A stretch of 64,000 bases of DNA from a phage. The notes beneath the pieces are model-generated. The model was not told where the DNA came from, made no database searches, and worked only from the letters and a program-made list of their open reading frames with translations. The stretch lies in the sequence record PZ386973.1; one strand, given 5' to 3'. The position numbers and the translations under genes were made by a program. Position 1 is the stretch's first letter. Every line of letters begins with the position of its first letter. Positions 19,927 through 32,102 of the stretch are shown here, piece after piece.

Positions 19927-20097
19927 ATGAAATCAGTTGTAATTATTGGTGTTAACACTCGCGGTATTCGTACTACGAAAACTGTTAAAACTTCTAACAT
20001 TGCTGAAATCACTACGAACCCTAAAAAGTTTGATTTCGCCAAAGTCTCAGCAGTTATGACAGAACAATCTTTTAACCAAGCATTGGGGATGAAATAA
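19927..20097 (+). CDS. hypothetical small protein
   Basis: ATG after GAGGAAG; about 56 codons; below the track length threshold. Confidence 0.35.
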   Translation: MKSVVIIGVNTRGIRTTKTVKTSNIAEITTNPKKFDFAKVSAVMTEQSFNQALGMK

Positions 20098-20531
20098 TGG
20101 GTACGAACATGATTCGTGTACTACGAGAGTTGATTGAAGATGCTCGTAAACGTGGAGATACTGTATCGGTTAAGCACCTAAGTACGATTCTAGGTGACTT
20201 GCAACGTATTAACAAGGATTGCATAACTAAGCTGGAATTTACTAACTGGCTGAAATCCCAGTTCAAGGCAATTGAGAATACACAGACTGCTGCTGAAAAA
20301 GCAAATGTCGAATATATTCCTGATGATGAATATCTAGATCTTTTAGCAGGTTTAGAGTATGAATACGCTTTGCAACAGCTGACTGAAACCGAAATTCGTA
20401 AATACTTTGCAGAACTAGTTAAATTAAACCCAGGTATTACCAAAGCCCTACTAATGAAAACTATTAAGGCAGAGTTCCCAGGGCGTTATGATGGTAAAAC
20501 AACTGCTTTGATTGCTAGTGAATTTTTCTAA
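20097..20531 (+). CDS. hypothetical protein
   Basis: Track ORF. Confidence 0.5.
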   Translation: MGTNMIRVLRELIEDARKRGDTVSVKHLSTILGDLQRINKDCITKLEFTNWLKSQFKAIENTQTAAEKANVEYIPDDEYLDLLAGLEYEYALQQLTETEIRKYFAELVKLNPGITKALLMKTIKAEFPGRYDGKTTALIASEFF

Positions 20532-20568: not shown

Positions 20569-20801
20569 ATATTCATAAATTAGAGAACAGCGAGCCGATT
20601 ACGCTGAGTGCAGAATCCCAACCGGAGCGCATTGAATAGAGTCGGTGGGTTAGTTGTAAAACTAGTACACAGGGGGCGGCAATCCCGGTTAGTGGCTAGA
20701 ACGTGTAAAATGGGGCGTCTGAAACCTCTCCCTTAAACTCTTCTCTAATCTATAAATAGTGGGGTGTGGAAATCACTTATGTAGTAACACTGCCGTCCTA
20801 A

Positions 20802-20888
20802 GTTAATTGGTAGACTTCTGCACGCGGAGATTATATCTCCAGATGCGGAAAGTGCAGGTTCGAATCCTGCGGTCGGTAAGAACTGGAT
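20802..20888 (+). tRNA. tRNA-like element (isotype unresolved)
   Basis: GGTTCGAATCC T-loop; acceptor GCCGTCC/GGTCGGT has one mismatch; anticodon arm not resolved. Confidence 0.35.
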
Positions 20889-25087: not shown

Positions 25088-25162
25088 GGTTCTCAAGCTC
25101 ATATGGTATGAGCACCCGGCTCATAACCGGAAGGTACGTAGGTTCGAATCCTCGGGGAGCCA
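25088..25162 (+). tRNA. tRNA with CAT anticodon (Met or Ile2)
   Basis: Acceptor GGTTCTC/GGGAGCC with G-U pairs, D-stem GCTC/GAGC, loop CTCATAA; T-stem pairing weak. Confidence 0.55.
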
Positions 25163-25671: not shown

Positions 25672-25745
25672 GGGGGTGTAATCGAATTGGCATAGGTACT
25701 GGACTTAAAATTCAGGTTTTGTGGGTTCGAATCCCACCACCCCTA
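25672..25745 (+). tRNA. tRNA, anticodon read as TAA (Leu-type) on a class I body
   Basis: Acceptor GGGGGTG/CACCCCT, T-arm GTGGG-TTCGAAT-CCCAC, loop CTTAAAA, A73, short variable loop. Confidence 0.55.
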
Positions 25746-25763
25746 CCAAATTAAGGAATTAAG

Positions 25764-27548: not shown

Positions 27549-27628
27549 GGGTCGTTAGCCAAGCGGTTTGGCGGTGGACTGTTAATCCATGTCGAAAGAC
27601 AACGTAGGTTCGAATCCTACACGGCCCG
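27549..27628 (+). tRNA. tRNA with GTT anticodon and 13-nt variable arm
   Basis: Acceptor GGGTCGT/ACGGCCC, D-stem GCCA/TGGC, anticodon stem GTGGA/TCCAT, loop CTGTTAA. Confidence 0.55.
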
Positions 27629-27733
27629 CCAAATTCTGTGTAGAGTTAAGTAAACCGGTAGCCAACCAGCTATCATTGCTGACATCGAATTCAGCCACAG
27701 ATACCATTTTCATTAATAACTGAGGAAACAAGC

Positions 27734-29599: not shown

Positions 29600-29675
29600 A
29601 GATCGCTAGCTCAATAGGTTTAGTAGCATCCGACTTTTAATCGGAAGGTTCTGGGTTCAAGTCCCAGGCGATCTA
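29600..29675 (+). tRNA. tRNA-Lys (anticodon TTT)
   Basis: Acceptor AGATCGC/GCGATCT, anticodon stem TCCGA/TCGGA, loop CTTTTAA. Confidence 0.75.
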
Positions 29676-29696
29676 CCAATTTCAAGAAAAACGCAG

Positions 29697-30047: not shown

Positions 30048-30121
30048 GCGTGATTGATGGAATGGGCATACATACCGTCCTTAGAAGTCGGGTTTTGAGG
30101 GTTCGAATCCCTTGTCACGCA
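30048..30121 (+). tRNA. tRNA, anticodon read as TAG (Leu-type) on a class I body
   Basis: Acceptor GCGTGAT/GTCACGC, T-arm GAGGG-TTCGAAT-CCCTT, loop CTTAGAA, A73; D-arm pairing unclear. Confidence 0.5.
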
Positions 30122-30236
30122 CCAAATTTGATGGTCAGAGTAAATTAAACCTACTATCTCGGTTGAGCTGTTTTAATGGGTTCGAATCCCAGCGAGGCGT
30201 AACTGCCTGGCGTGATAGAGGCATCATCTTATTATT

Positions 30237-32012: not shown

Positions 32013-32084
32013 GCTCCTAAAGCATTGCTGGCGATGCAGTTGCCTTGTAAGCATCTGAACCGGGTTCGATTCCTGGTGGGAGCA
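32013..32084 (+). tRNA. tRNA-Thr (anticodon TGT)
   Basis: Acceptor GCTCCTA/TGGGAGC, D-stem GCAT/ATGC, loop CTTGTAA. Confidence 0.65.
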
Positions 32085-32102
32085 CCAAATTTAAAAATTC
32101 AT

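What the first reader, a model, noticed from the sequence alone, without database searches (positions are those of the whole stretch)
27549..27628. tRNA with GUU anticodon and a 13-nt variable arm
The cloverleaf pairs well (acceptor GGGTCGT/ACGGCCC, D-stem GCCA/TGGC, anticodon stem GTGGA/TCCAT) but carries a GTCGAAAGACAAC variable arm, which is unusual for an Asn-type anticodon.
Basis: seen in the sequence. Interest (0 to 1): 0.45.

Follow-up and report, generated by a model that had tools for sequence, protein, structure and literature searches.

The report
Phage asparagine tRNA with extra arm
This T5-like phage encodes a genuine asparagine tRNA with an extra hairpin arm normally found only on leucine, serine and tyrosine tRNAs; such tRNAs are common in phages, almost absent from cells, and may help phage tRNAs escape bacterial tRNA-cutting defences.

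Summary
Window 27549-27631 (+) is a well-formed tRNA with anticodon GUU, discriminator G73, an encoded CCA and a 13-nt variable region (GUC/GAC stem, GAAA loop, AAC linker). ARAGORN, Rfam (59 bits) and the MFE fold all agree on it.

The arm is not a one-off:
- 95 distinct long-arm tRNA-Asn(GUU) sequences occur in viral contigs and in at least five unrelated phage lineages.
- The arm helix shows strong compensatory covariation, and 56% of loops are GNRA.
- Roughly 16-29% of phage tRNA-Asn genes in an unbiased sample are long-arm.
- A scan of 185,579 bacterial and archaeal species found only 16 real cases, mostly in accessory tRNA arrays. None of 5,426 E. coli genomes has one.
- The literature I could search does not describe it.

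It carries the full AsnRS identity set, so it most likely decodes Asn. Phage T5 itself carries a different allele at this locus (class I, mutated anticodon stem).

Why the arm exists is inferred. My best guess is that it is a remodelled tRNA core that evades shape-reading defence tRNases such as PARIS AriB. The support is circumstantial: published Bas33 rescue data, the reciprocal allele pattern, and paired class I/long-arm isodecoders. Rivals are a structural legacy, a handle for another factor, and Ser mischarging.

The parts
27549..27631 (+). Complete tRNA-Asn(GUU) gene, 83 nt including the encoded 3' CCA
   Evidence: ARAGORN; Rfam RF00005 at 59 bits, E=3.3e-10; MFE cloverleaf
27549..27555 (+). 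Acceptor stem 5' strand GGGTCGT. It pairs with 27621-27627 as G1-C72, G2-C71, G3-C70, U4.G69, C5-G68, G6-C67 and U7-A66.
   Evidence: Sequence; CM alignment. The same acceptor stem occurs in Epseptimavirus, Klebsiella T4-like and Marfa phage homologues.
27558..27572 (+). D arm: stem GCCA/TGGC (4 bp) with loop AGCGGTT (7 nt). This is class I-like geometry and includes C11-G24.
   Evidence: Most relatives in other phage families instead have a class II-like D arm such as GCTGAGAGGGTAAGC.
27574..27590 (+). Anticodon arm: stem GTGGA/TCCAT, loop CTGTTAA. It differs from E. coli tRNA-Asn only at pair 28:42 (U-A instead of C-G) and keeps the UAAUC|C sequence at the published AriB cleavage site.
   Evidence: PMC12409363
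27581..27583 (+). Anticodon GTT (G34 U35 U36), followed by A37
   Evidence: These are AsnRS identity elements according to PMC9976931.
27591..27603 (+). Variable arm, 13 nt: 3-bp stem GTC/GAC (27591-27593 with 27598-27600), GAAA tetraloop (27594-27597), and 3-nt 3' linker AAC (27601-27603)
   Evidence: covariation in homologues; geometry statistics
27604..27620 (+). T arm: stem GTAGG/CCTAC, loop TTCGAAT
27621..27627 (+). Acceptor stem 3' strand ACGGCCC
27628..27628 (+). Discriminator G73, an AsnRS identity element
   Evidence: 129 of 133 long-arm homologues have G73; PMC9976931
27629..27631 (+). Genome-encoded CCA 3' end

Best explanation
This is a functional, phage-encoded tRNA that reads the Asn codons AAC/AAU and is charged with asparagine by the host AsnRS. 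The identity set G34-U35-U36 plus G73 is shown in the sequence, but charging itself is inferred. It differs from every cellular tRNA-Asn in carrying a small class II-type extra arm (3-4 bp stem, usually a GNRA loop, about 3 unpaired nucleotides on the 3' side). That arm is under purifying selection as an RNA helix, which is shown. My proposed reason for the arm is inferred and not demonstrated. Together with an altered D arm, it remodels the tRNA core next to the 3' strand of the anticodon stem. Defence nucleases that recognise host tRNA-Asn by shape and by D-loop or anticodon-stem contacts, such as PARIS AriB, would then no longer bind or cut the tRNA productively. The anticodon stem-loop that AsnRS and the ribosome need can meanwhile stay host-like. 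On this view the long-arm allele is an alternative to the solution used by phage T5, whose class I tRNA-Asn instead carries mutations in the anticodon stem at the cleavage site.
For: tRNA and Asn identity:
- The tRNA is real.
- It has GUU, A37 and G73. Per PMC9976931, transplanting the anticodon and G73 is enough to transfer Asn identity.
- G73 is kept in 129 of 133 long-arm homologues despite very different acceptor stems.

The arm is selected:
- All 4 arm pairs show changes on both sides, the inner three pairs are 97-100% paired, 0 of 500 shuffles reach the observed covariation, and the slid controls collapse.
- 50 of 90 loops are GNRA.

It is phage-specific and recurrent:
- It occurs in Demerecviridae, Straboviridae, Marfavirus, Phapecoctavirus and a phiKZ-like jumbo phage.
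- 92% of these genes lie in tRNA arrays.
- Only 16 real cases were found in 185,579 cellular species genomes, and 10 of those are in large accessory tRNA arrays.
- No E. coli genome has one.

The core behaves as a module:
- Some long/short pairs have identical acceptor, anticodon and T arms and differ only in the D arm and variable region.

The arm is not a neutral relic:
- Some phages keep a class I copy and a long-arm copy of the same anticodon side by side, for Asn, Cys, Pro, Asp, Ile and Thr. All of these copies pass the Rfam threshold.

Link to defence:
- Its modelled dimer also contacts D-loop nucleotides 16-17, and contacts outside the anticodon stem-loop matter for cleavage (PMC12409363).
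- Within Tequintavirus, Asn and Thr(UGU) each exist either as a class I allele with a mutated anticodon stem (T5) or as a long-arm allele with the host-like UAAUC| site (window; Bas33).
- Bas33 carries long-arm Asn and long-arm Thr(UGU) and lacks Lys(UUU). It was rescued from PARIS by T5 tRNA-Lys alone, whereas T7 needed Lys plus Thr.
- All 11 long-arm Thr tRNAs in the dataset are UGU.
Against: - No experiment has tested this allele against any nuclease. The PARIS rescue work used the T5 class I allele, which has a different sequence.
- The Bas33 argument is indirect. High expression of the phage tRNA, or low dependence on Asn, would explain it equally well; T4 and T7 were rescued without any tRNA-Asn.
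- tRNA-Lys(UUU), the prime AriB and PrrC target, never carries a long arm in my sample (0 of 96).
- Long arms also occur on Cys, Trp, Pro and Asp tRNAs, for which I know of no matching nuclease.
- Natural long-arm tRNAs are themselves nuclease targets: PtuAB of retron-Eco7 depletes tRNA-Tyr.
- The window's own D arm is class I-like, so its core remodelling is milder than in other lineages.
- I had no RNA-protein 3D modelling, so steric exclusion is conjecture.
- AsnRS is a class IIb enzyme and, from my own knowledge of the AspRS complex, approaches tRNA from the variable-loop side. The arm must therefore be tolerated by AsnRS, and this is untested.
Confidence: 0.45

Rival explanations
1. Structural legacy. 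The long-arm tRNA-Asn arose by an anticodon shift or by recombination from a class II scaffold. tRNA-Tyr GUA to GUU plus A73G is one route; tRNA-Ser GCU to GUU by C35U is another, since Ser already has G73 and A37. Once the core is built around the arm, the arm is kept only because the fold needs it. The lineage then spread among phages by horizontal transfer, and the arm has no function of its own.
For: - The arm geometry matches phage tRNA-Tyr (3-bp stem, 0-1 nt 5' linker, 3 nt 3' linker).
- D arms of long-arm Asn tRNAs are closest to Ser (26), Tyr (9) and Leu (4) out of 90, whereas class II tRNAs are not among the leading nearest classes for the short-arm Asn controls.
- Horizontal transfer is clear. 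An identical acceptor stem is shared by siphovirus and myovirus families, and the window and Serratia phage CBH8 share an identical variable arm and T arm.
- Compensatory changes alone show selection for the fold, not for an extra function.
Against: - Outside the D arm and variable region the body is Asn-like: a short-arm Asn is at least as close as any non-Asn tRNA in 65 of 90 cases.
- Some pairs differ only in the D-arm-plus-variable-region module. Together with 36 divergent clusters, this suggests repeated conversion rather than a single accident.
- Class I and long-arm copies of the same anticodon coexist in the same array.
- The same arm type recurs on Thr, Cys, Trp, Pro, Asp and Ile tRNAs.
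- The Ser(GCU) signal is weak: GCU is the nearest Ser in 50% of cases against a 36% background.
- The window's own D arm is not class II-like.
Confidence: 0.25
2. Recognition handle. The arm marks phage tRNAs for a dedicated partner. Candidates are a phage or host modification or processing enzyme, a tRNA repair or protection factor, or a non-ribosomal use of Asn-tRNA. In effect this would create a private, shape-tagged tRNA pool.
For: - GNRA tetraloops, which are frequent docking motifs, are strongly enriched (56%, with GAAA at 43%).
- The linker lengths are conserved, implying a fixed arm orientation.
- Paired tagged and untagged isodecoders occur in the same arrays.
- tRNA-dependent non-ribosomal reactions exist in phages, according to the title and abstract of PMC13219725.
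Against: - No conserved protein gene accompanies the tRNA across the unrelated phage families that carry it.
- GNRA loops are about as common in ordinary phage Ser (52%) and Leu (43%) arms, so they may simply be stable caps.
- The loop sequence is not invariant; UUAG, UUCG and longer loops also occur.
Confidence: 0.1
3. Altered or dual identity. Because it has a long arm plus G73, G1-C72, G2-C71, C11-G24 and G30-C40, the tRNA is charged partly or wholly with serine by SerRS, which ignores the anticodon. Ser would then be inserted at Asn codons.
For: - The window tRNA has most of the bacterial SerRS identity elements listed in PMC9976931 (sequence).
- There is precedent for class II tRNAs with 'wrong' anticodons that are charged according to their body: nev-tRNAs (PMC3333845) and allo-tRNAs (PMC5389517).
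Against: - The arm is short (3-4 bp) with a 3-nt 3' linker. Phage tRNA-Ser arms have 5-7 bp stems and 0-1 nt linkers, and SerRS reads arm size and orientation and the tertiary structure.
- R4-Y69 is absent; the window has U4.G69.
- Across the family the acceptor stems are not Ser-like, and many have U1-A72 and C2-G71 as in cellular tRNA-Asn, while GUU and G73 are almost universal.
- Proteome-wide Asn-to-Ser replacement would be costly.
Confidence: 0.07
4. It is a decaying or non-functional tRNA gene whose variable loop happens to have acquired an insertion.
For: - Defective chimeric copies do exist. The Bas34 copy has the long-arm 5' part fused to a foreign 3' acceptor strand, which breaks 3 of 7 acceptor pairs.
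- One cellular hit, Azoarcus L281, looks like a tandem duplication in the variable loop.
Against: - The window copy has a perfect cloverleaf, canonical T and D loop motifs and an encoded CCA.
- 208 phage records are at least 99% identical to it.
- The arm shows strong compensatory covariation across 34 distinct sequences.
Confidence: 0.03

Closest known systems
Canonical bacterial tRNA-Asn(GUU), e.g. E. coli asnT
   Same: Both have anticodon loop CUGUUAA, a nearly identical anticodon stem (one base pair differs), G26, G73, a T loop of the UUCGAnU type and an encoded CCA. The AsnRS identity set is therefore the same.
   Different: E. coli has a 5-nt variable loop (AUGUC), whereas the window has a 13-nt hairpin arm. 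The acceptor stem is unrelated (G1-C72, G2-C71 in the window; U1-A72, C2-G71 in E. coli). The D stem and D loop differ. BLAST finds no significant similarity to any of 5,426 E. coli genomes.
Bacterial and phage class II tRNA-Tyr(GUA)
   Same: The arm geometry is the same: a 3-bp stem, a 0-1 nt 5' linker, a 3-nt 3' linker and about 13 nt in total. The anticodon differs at one position only (GUA vs GUU).
   Different: Tyr has A73 and A36, both needed by TyrRS; this tRNA has G73 and U36. Tyr arms rarely have GNRA loops (5% vs 56%). The window's D arm has a 4-bp stem and is class I-like.
Phage T5 anti-PARIS tRNAs: Lys(UUU), Thr(UGU) and Asn(GUU) (PMC12409363)
   Same: It has the same anticodon and the same genomic locus (Cys - Asn - small ORF - Asp) in the same phage genus, so a counter-defence role is plausible.
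   Different: The T5 tRNA-Asn is a different molecule: 78 nt, class I, with a mismatched and mutated anticodon stem (GCATC/GTTGA) and loop UUGUUAA. The window allele keeps the host-like UAAUC|C site and has the extra arm instead. The main text of the paper never mentions variable arms.
nev-tRNAs: nematode-specific V-arm tRNAs with Gly or Ile anticodons (PMC3333845)
   Same: These are class II-type tRNAs whose anticodon belongs to an amino acid that normally uses class I tRNAs (abstract).
   Different: According to the title and abstract, nev-tRNAs are tied to an alternative genetic code for leucine, so their identity follows the tRNA body. Here the anticodon and discriminator match the AsnRS identity set and the arm is unlike a Ser arm, so faithful Asn decoding is expected. 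They also come from a different domain of life.
allo-tRNAs (PMC5389517)
   Same: They are non-canonical tRNAs with long variable arms and diverse anticodons, found in metagenomes and in some phages.
   Different: allo-tRNAs are defined by an 8/4 or 9/3 acceptor/T-stem architecture and by Ser or Ala identity. This tRNA has the standard 7/5 architecture.
Type I (short-arm) tRNA-Leu of Streptomyces coelicolor (PMC6614811)
   Same: It is a precedent for an isotype crossing the class I/class II boundary while still being charged by its cognate synthetase (abstract).
   Different: The direction is opposite (loss of the arm), and it occurs in a cellular genome. The same loss is seen in this window's two 77-nt tRNA-Leu genes.

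Membership tests
tRNA (Rfam RF00005) | Cloverleaf with a 7-bp acceptor stem, D arm with GG, 5-bp anticodon stem with a 7-nt loop, and T arm with a UUCGAAU-type loop, scoring above the curated threshold | tested here: met
   59.0 bits against a gathering score of 29, E=3.3e-10, full-length match to model positions 1-71. ARAGORN agrees.
Bacterial tRNA-Asn (AsnRS substrate) | Anticodon G34-U35-U36 (with A37) and discriminator G73 | tested here: met
   GTT at 27581-27583, A at 27584 and G at 27628. The identity set is taken from PMC9976931.
Bacterial tRNA-Asn (AsnRS substrate) | Actual aminoacylation with asparagine | not testable with these tools
   This needs in vitro charging or analysis of acylated tRNA from infected cells.
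Bacterial tRNA-Asn (AsnRS substrate) | Class I architecture with a 4-5 nt variable loop, as in all cellular tRNA-Asn | tested here: not met
   The variable region is 13 nt, whereas E. coli asnT has 5 nt.
Class II (type II) tRNA architecture | Variable region of 10 nt or more forming a stem-loop | tested here: met
   13 nt, consisting of a GUC/GAC stem and a GAAA loop. The helix is supported by covariation. The definition comes from PMC7609411.
Class II (type II) tRNA architecture | Class II-type D arm: a 3-bp D stem with a non-Watson-Crick 13:22 pair and an enlarged D loop | tested here: not met
   The window has four Watson-Crick D-stem pairs (GCCA/TGGC) and a 7-nt loop, and its D arm is nearest to class I tRNAs. 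Many homologues in other phages do meet this feature, for example GCTGAGAGGGTAAGC and CCCGAGTTGGTAGCAGGG.
Bacterial tRNA-Ser (SerRS substrate) | G73, G1-C72, G2-C71, C11-G24 and G30-C40 | tested here: met
   All are present in the window sequence. The element list is from PMC9976931.
Bacterial tRNA-Ser (SerRS substrate) | R4-Y69, and a large variable arm of Ser-type size and orientation | tested here: not met
   The window has U4.G69. Its arm has a 3-bp stem and a 3-nt 3' linker, whereas 122 phage tRNA-Ser have 5-7 bp stems and 0-1 nt linkers.
Bacterial tRNA-Tyr (TyrRS substrate) | Discriminator A73, plus U35 in a GUA anticodon | tested here: not met
   The window has G73 and U36. The requirement is from PMC9976931.
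allo-tRNA | 8/4 or 9/3 acceptor/T-stem configuration | tested here: not met
   The configuration here is the standard 7/5.
T5-type AriB-resistant tRNA variants (PMC12409363) | Nucleotide substitutions at or next to the AriB cleavage site (positions 39-41) | tested here: not met
   The window has U39-C40-C41, identical to E. coli tRNA-Asn, and only pair 28:42 differs. The T5 allele does carry the substitutions.
T5-type AriB-resistant tRNA variants (PMC12409363) | Resistance to AriB cleavage, or rescue of infection under PARIS | not testable with these tools
   The only evidence is indirect. Bas33, which has long-arm Asn and Thr alleles, was rescued by T5 tRNA-Lys alone.

The most novel reading that the evidence does not exclude
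Phage tRNA arrays encode a parallel set of shape-altered isodecoders. A small Tyr-like extra arm and a remodelled D arm are grafted onto tRNAs that are class I in all cells: Asn above all, but also Thr(UGU), Cys, Trp, Pro, Asp, Ile and Met. These copies often sit next to an ordinary copy with the same anticodon. The reverse change, tRNA-Leu stripped of its arm, also occurs. This would be a general and previously unrecognised counter-defence strategy: changing the tRNA's silhouette rather than its anticodon loop, so that shape-reading immune tRNases or other tRNA-binding effectors miss it. It would mean the class I/class II division of tRNAs is an evolvable trait in the phage-host arms race.
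Probability: 0.25. Interest if true: 0.85.

Novelty: new variant of a known kind. Interest (0 to 1): 0.62.

Why it matters
Textbooks restrict long variable arms to tRNA-Leu, tRNA-Ser, bacterial tRNA-Tyr and tRNA-Sec. A common class II-like tRNA-Asn that is essentially phage-restricted breaks that rule. In my sample, 16-29% of phage tRNA-Asn genes matching the search words are long-arm.

Work so far on how phage tRNAs evade tRNA-targeting immunity has focused on point mutations in the anticodon stem-loop. If the arm is an evasion device, it reveals a second route: remodelling of the tRNA core. It would also predict which defence nucleases read tRNA shape.

The idea can be tested directly with existing reagents: purified AriB, the T5 and BASEL phages, and in vitro transcripts.

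There are practical consequences as well:
- Isotype-specific tRNA models and annotation pipelines may mis-score these genes.
- The arm is a compact natural example of an insertion that the translation machinery tolerates, which is useful for tRNA engineering.
- The arm may serve as a marker for phage-derived tRNA arrays in bacterial genomes.

Tried and rejected
1. **Assuming this is the T5 tRNA-Asn used in the PARIS study.** Rejected. T5 proper has a different 78-nt class I allele at the same locus, with an identical 3' flank.

2. **Using Bas34's PARIS sensitivity as evidence against arm-mediated protection.** Rejected. The Bas34 copy is a chimera: the long-arm 5' part is joined to a foreign 3' acceptor strand, so 3 of 7 acceptor pairs are broken and a fourth is a G.U wobble. 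It is probably non-functional.

3. **Origin from tRNA-Ser(GCU) by a single C35U change.** The support is weak. GCU is the nearest Ser isoacceptor in 45 of 90 cases against a background of 44 of 122, and the window's own D arm is class I-like. I kept it only as part of the legacy rival.

4. **Looking for a host counterpart.** BLAST against 5,426 E. coli genomes gave nothing significant; the best matches had E of 0.7 or more and were to tRNA-Lys.

5. **Literature.** Eight full-text searches and targeted reads found no description of a long-arm tRNA-Asn. The reads covered the tRNA identity review, the non-canonical tRNA review, the AriB, retron/PrrC and Schlafen papers, the eLife anticodon-loop paper and the Sf14 tRNA paper. 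The Sargen and Helaine 2024 paper is not held, and the supplements of the AriB paper are not held.

6. **A possible tRNA-binding partner.** The window ORF at 20097-20531 matches PHROG 1460, named 'tRNA amidotransferase'. It has no Pfam or PDB sequence match, and the single-sequence AlphaFold model has pLDDT 59, too poor for a fold search. T5, which has the class I allele, carries the same gene, so I dropped it.

I substituted nearest-neighbour comparisons.

8. **A denominator for normal tRNA-Asn genes in the cellular genome collection.**
Full report
**1. What is there**

Window 27549-27631 (+) reads GGGTCGT TA GCCA AGCGGTT TGGC G GTGGA CTGTTAA TCCAT GTCGAAAGACAAC GTAGG TTCGAAT CCTAC ACGGCCC G CCA. 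ARAGORN calls it tRNA-Asn(gtt). Rfam's tRNA model scores it at 59.0 bits against a gathering score of 29 (E=3.3e-10) and places a 10-nt insertion exactly in the variable region. An unconstrained fold returns the cloverleaf plus a fifth hairpin, GUC-GAAA-GAC (-30.5 kcal/mol, z=-2.3). No tool proposed another anticodon.

**2. Genomic setting**

The window is the tRNA region of a T5-like phage (Demerecviridae, Tequintavirus). The 601 bases around the tRNA are 99.0-99.5% identical to Salmonella phages Kenya-K16 and Th1 and to several Escherichia phages. ARAGORN finds 22 co-oriented tRNA genes, and Rfam adds two that ARAGORN misses while missing two that ARAGORN calls. The order here is tRNA-Cys, a 152-nt spacer, tRNA-Asn, a 61-aa DUF7337 ORF, then tRNA-Asp.

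**3. The arm is a conserved, selected structure found in many unrelated phages**

BLAST of the 83-nt gene against 50,697 phage records finds 535 records where the match covers at least 80% of the gene. Fetching a spread of these shows tRNA-Asn(GUU) genes of 83-87 nt in the following groups:
- Tequintavirus, Epseptimavirus and Novosibvirus (Demerecviridae)
- T4-like Straboviridae infecting Serratia, Klebsiella, Citrobacter, Enterobacter and Cronobacter
- Marfavirus
- Phapecoctavirus
- A phiKZ-like Pseudomonas jumbo phage

The arms differ by compensatory changes: GUC/GAC, GUUC/GAAC, AUCC/GGAU, GUCA/UGAC, GUCG/CGAC and GGC/GCC. They are capped by GAAA, GUAA or GCAA.

From those loci I extracted 95 distinct long-arm tRNA-Asn sequences. 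The variable region is 9-24 nt, with a mode of 15 nt, and G73 is present in 129 of 133.

On a gap-free alignment of the 34 distinct sequences with a 15-nt arm:
- All four arm pairs show changes on both sides.
- The inner three pairs are 97-100% paired, with 3-4 pair types each.
- No shuffle out of 500 reaches the observed covariation.
- Sliding the partner strand collapses pairing to 31-42%.

GNRA tetraloops cap 50 of 90 arms, and 39 of them are GAAA.

**4. It is essentially restricted to phages**

With one pattern covering both gap sizes, 13 of the 80 rows shown are long-arm. After calling the tRNAs, the split is 14 long to 58 short. Among genes embedded in tRNA arrays, which are clearly phage-encoded, it is 12 of 42, or 29%. 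Of all long-arm genes, 92% lie in arrays, against 57% of short-arm ones.

The same long-gap pattern scanned over one genome for each of 185,579 bacterial and archaeal species gave 30 matches. Only 16 are real long-arm tRNA-Asn genes. Ten of those lie in dense arrays of 7-36 tRNA genes, such as the Micromonospora and Verrucosispora arrays and several MAG contigs. No E. coli genome out of 5,426, prophages included, has anything similar. I could not count normal tRNA-Asn genes in that collection because only one scan was allowed. The four E. coli K-12 asn genes match the short-gap form of the pattern.

**5. What it most likely does**

Per the tRNA identity review PMC9976931, bacterial Asn identity rests on the three anticodon bases and G73, and transplanting these is enough to transfer Asn identity to another tRNA. 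The window tRNA has all of them plus A37. Its anticodon arm differs from E. coli's at one base pair only. G73 and GUU are kept across a family whose acceptor stems are otherwise highly diverse. I therefore infer normal Asn charging and decoding.

TyrRS needs A73, which is absent here.

SerRS is a more serious alternative. G73, G1-C72, G2-C71, C11-G24 and G30-C40 are all present. However, R4-Y69 is missing, and the arm is Tyr-like in geometry (3-4 bp stem, 3-nt 3' linker) rather than Ser-like (5-7 bp stem, 0-1 nt linker). Many family members also have Asn-type U1-A72 and C2-G71 acceptor stems.

**6. Why the arm? Evidence bearing on a counter-defence role**

Belukhina et al. (PMC12409363) report the following:
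- The T5 Lys, Thr and Asn tRNAs together neutralise PARIS.
- The modelled AriB dimer spans the anticodon stem and D-loop nucleotides 16-17.
- Elements outside the anticodon stem-loop matter for cleavage.

The word 'variable' does not occur in that paper's main text.

T5 proper carries a different tRNA-Asn at this locus. It is 78 nt and class I, with a mismatched anticodon stem mutated at the cleavage site, and it has the same 3' flank as the window. In INPHARED about 134 records carry the T5 allele at 95% identity or more, and about 269 carry the window-type allele.

Bas33 (HildyBeyeler, MZ501074) has the window's gene order. It carries a long-arm Asn allele (arm AUCCGCAAGGAUAAA) and also a long-arm tRNA-Thr(UGU) (87 nt, arm AGGAGUAAUCCCGUU) that retains the exact host UAAUC|A site. 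It lacks tRNA-Lys(UUU). In the published experiments Bas33 was rescued from PARIS by T5 tRNA-Lys alone, whereas T7 needed Lys plus Thr.

So for two AriB targets, the same phage genus shows two alternative designs:
- A mutated cleavage site on a class I body (T5; the window's own Thr).
- A host-like cleavage site on a long-arm body (the window's Asn; the Bas33 Asn and Thr).

All 11 long-arm Thr tRNAs in my dataset are UGU.

This evidence is suggestive but circumstantial. Bas34, which still needed T5 tRNA-Asn, tells us nothing, because its copy is a chimera with a disrupted acceptor stem.

**7. Evidence that the arm is more than a relic**

- Some long-arm and short-arm Asn tRNAs share identical acceptor, anticodon and T arms and differ only in the D arm and variable region, for example L054 and L227. 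The core therefore appears to be exchanged or remodelled as a unit. The long-arm genes fall into 36 clusters at 80% body identity.
- D arms of long-arm Asn tRNAs most resemble class II tRNAs in 39 of 90 cases, while the rest of the body stays Asn-like.
- Several arrays hold a class I copy and a long-arm copy of the same anticodon, often adjacent. In L048 these are Asn 72/89 nt, Cys 75/89, Pro 76/87 and Asp 73/90. In L052 they are Asn 73/87, Ile 75/86 and Thr-UGU 74/85. All pass Rfam's threshold.
- Horizontal spread is also evident. The acceptor stem GGGUCGU/ACGGCCC is shared by Tequintavirus, Epseptimavirus, a Klebsiella T4-like phage and Marfa. The window and Serratia phage CBH8 share an identical variable arm and T arm.

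**8. Caveats**

- No long arm was seen on any of 96 phage tRNA-Lys, although Lys is the main target of AriB and PrrC.
- Arms also occur on isotypes with no known matching nuclease.
- Natural class II tRNAs can themselves be nuclease targets: tRNA-Tyr is depleted by retron-Eco7 PtuAB.
- The window's own D arm is class I-like.
- I could not model RNA-protein complexes.
- The prevalence figures apply only to tRNA-Asn genes containing the words GGACTGTTAATCC and GGTTCGA. The T5 allele, for example, is invisible to that pattern.

**9. Comparison with what is known, and novelty**

The gene is annotated simply as tRNA-Asn in hundreds of GenBank records. Eight full-text searches and targeted reading of the most relevant papers found no description of a class II-like tRNA-Asn or of variable-arm gain in phage tRNAs.

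The nearest precedents are:
- nev-tRNAs and allo-tRNAs, which are class II bodies with unexpected anticodons whose identity follows the body.
- Type I tRNA-Leu in Streptomyces, which crosses the class boundary in the opposite direction.

I rate this a new variant of a known kind. It is a real and ordinary-looking gene whose architecture breaks a textbook rule in a systematic, phage-specific way, and it comes with a testable link to tRNA-targeting immunity.

Noticed in passing
window 25672-25748 and 30048-30124: Both tRNA-Leu genes (UAA and UAG) are 77 nt with a 5-nt variable loop (GTTTT), A73 and a Leu-like D arm. They are class I-like tRNA-Leu. T5's tRNA-Leu(UAG) at the equivalent position is 85 nt and class II. 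Across the sampled phage loci, 41% of tRNA-Leu lack the long arm. According to PMC9976931, E. coli LeuRS does not need the arm.
   Followed up: partly
L287 5953-6525 (phage T5, NC_005859.1 33952-34524): T5 proper has a different tRNA-Asn allele at this locus: 78 nt, class I, with a mutated anticodon stem. It is overlapped by ORF T5.069, which other records annotate as a T5orf172-domain protein or putative homing endonuclease. The 3' flank is identical to the window, which suggests cassette replacement, perhaps driven by the endonuclease.
   Followed up: partly
L290 16775-16861 (Escherichia phage HildyBeyeler / Bas33): This is a long-arm tRNA-Thr(UGU), 87 nt, with variable region AGGAGTAATCCCGTT and a class II-like D arm. 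It retains the host-like UAAUC|A AriB site. The window's own tRNA-Thr(UGU) at 32013-32087 is the 75-nt T5 type with a mutated anticodon stem.
   Followed up: partly
L289 17599-17681 (Escherichia phage SelmaRatti / Bas34): This is a chimeric tRNA-Asn. The long-arm allele runs through the variable arm and is joined to a foreign T-stem and acceptor 3' strand (ACCCGCT), leaving 3 of 7 acceptor pairs broken. It is probably a deletion junction, since this phage has only 12 tRNAs. It may explain why Bas34 needed T5 tRNA-Asn in the PARIS study.
   Followed up: yes
L048 2862-13240; L052 130-3169; L077 610-4320: These metagenomic phage tRNA arrays carry paired isodecoders: one class I copy and one long-arm copy with the same anticodon, often adjacent. 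The isotypes are Asn, Cys, Pro, Asp, Ile, Thr-UGU and Met. All copies pass the Rfam tRNA threshold.
   Followed up: partly
L254, L255, L259, L278 (Verrucosispora / Micromonospora genomes): These are dense accessory arrays of 23-36 tRNA genes within 5-8 kb. Each contains an 89-90 nt long-arm tRNA-Asn(GUU) with a U1-A72 acceptor stem. They account for much of the rare cellular occurrence of the architecture.
   Followed up: no
window 27632-27712: The conserved sequence immediately downstream of tRNA-Asn corresponds to T5 'RNA3, putative tRNA-like RNA'. It folds into an acceptor-like stem (UCUGUG/CACAGA), two hairpins including a T-arm-like one, and ends in UACCA. It has no D arm. The fold has z=-2.6.
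   Followed up: partly
window 20792-20878: Rfam reports a tRNA hit at 42 bits that ARAGORN does not call. It is 87 nt with normal acceptor, D and T arms, but a long composite hairpin (about 40 nt) replaces the anticodon arm. It lies in the region T5 annotates as stable RNA X.
   Followed up: no
window 25088-25162: Rfam reports a tRNA hit at 40.3 bits that ARAGORN misses. It has a CAU anticodon and is positioned like T5 tRNA-Ile2(CAU), next to tRNA-Ser(GCU).
   Followed up: no
window 29600-29678: The window's tRNA-Lys(UUU) is 79 nt with anticodon stem TCCGA/TCGGA. It is a different allele from T5's AriB-resistant tRNA-Lys (CTGGT/ACCAT), keeps U39-C40 and has G41. Several tRNAs in this cluster therefore exist as alternative alleles among T5-like phages (PMC12409363).
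   Followed up: no
window 20097-20531: This 144-aa ORF next to the tRNA cluster matches PHROG 1460, named 'tRNA amidotransferase' (E=1e-37), and is the homologue of T5.081. It has no Pfam or PDB sequence match, and the single-sequence AlphaFold model is all-helical but low confidence (pLDDT 59). The functional name is unverified.
   Followed up: partly
viral loci (e.g. tRNA-Ile entries): 16 of 90 phage tRNA-Ile have apparent variable regions, mostly of 21-26 nt (two are 14-15 nt), with few GNRA loops. They may be a different kind of insertion, or an artefact of my simple parser.
   Followed up: no
L281 114-200 (Azoarcus sp. L1K30): This otherwise ordinary cellular tRNA-Asn has an 87-nt gene in which the variable/T-stem segment CCGTAGGTC is tandemly duplicated two bases apart (CCGTAGGTCATCCGTAGGTCC). 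It is an example of how an insertion at this site can arise.
   Followed up: no
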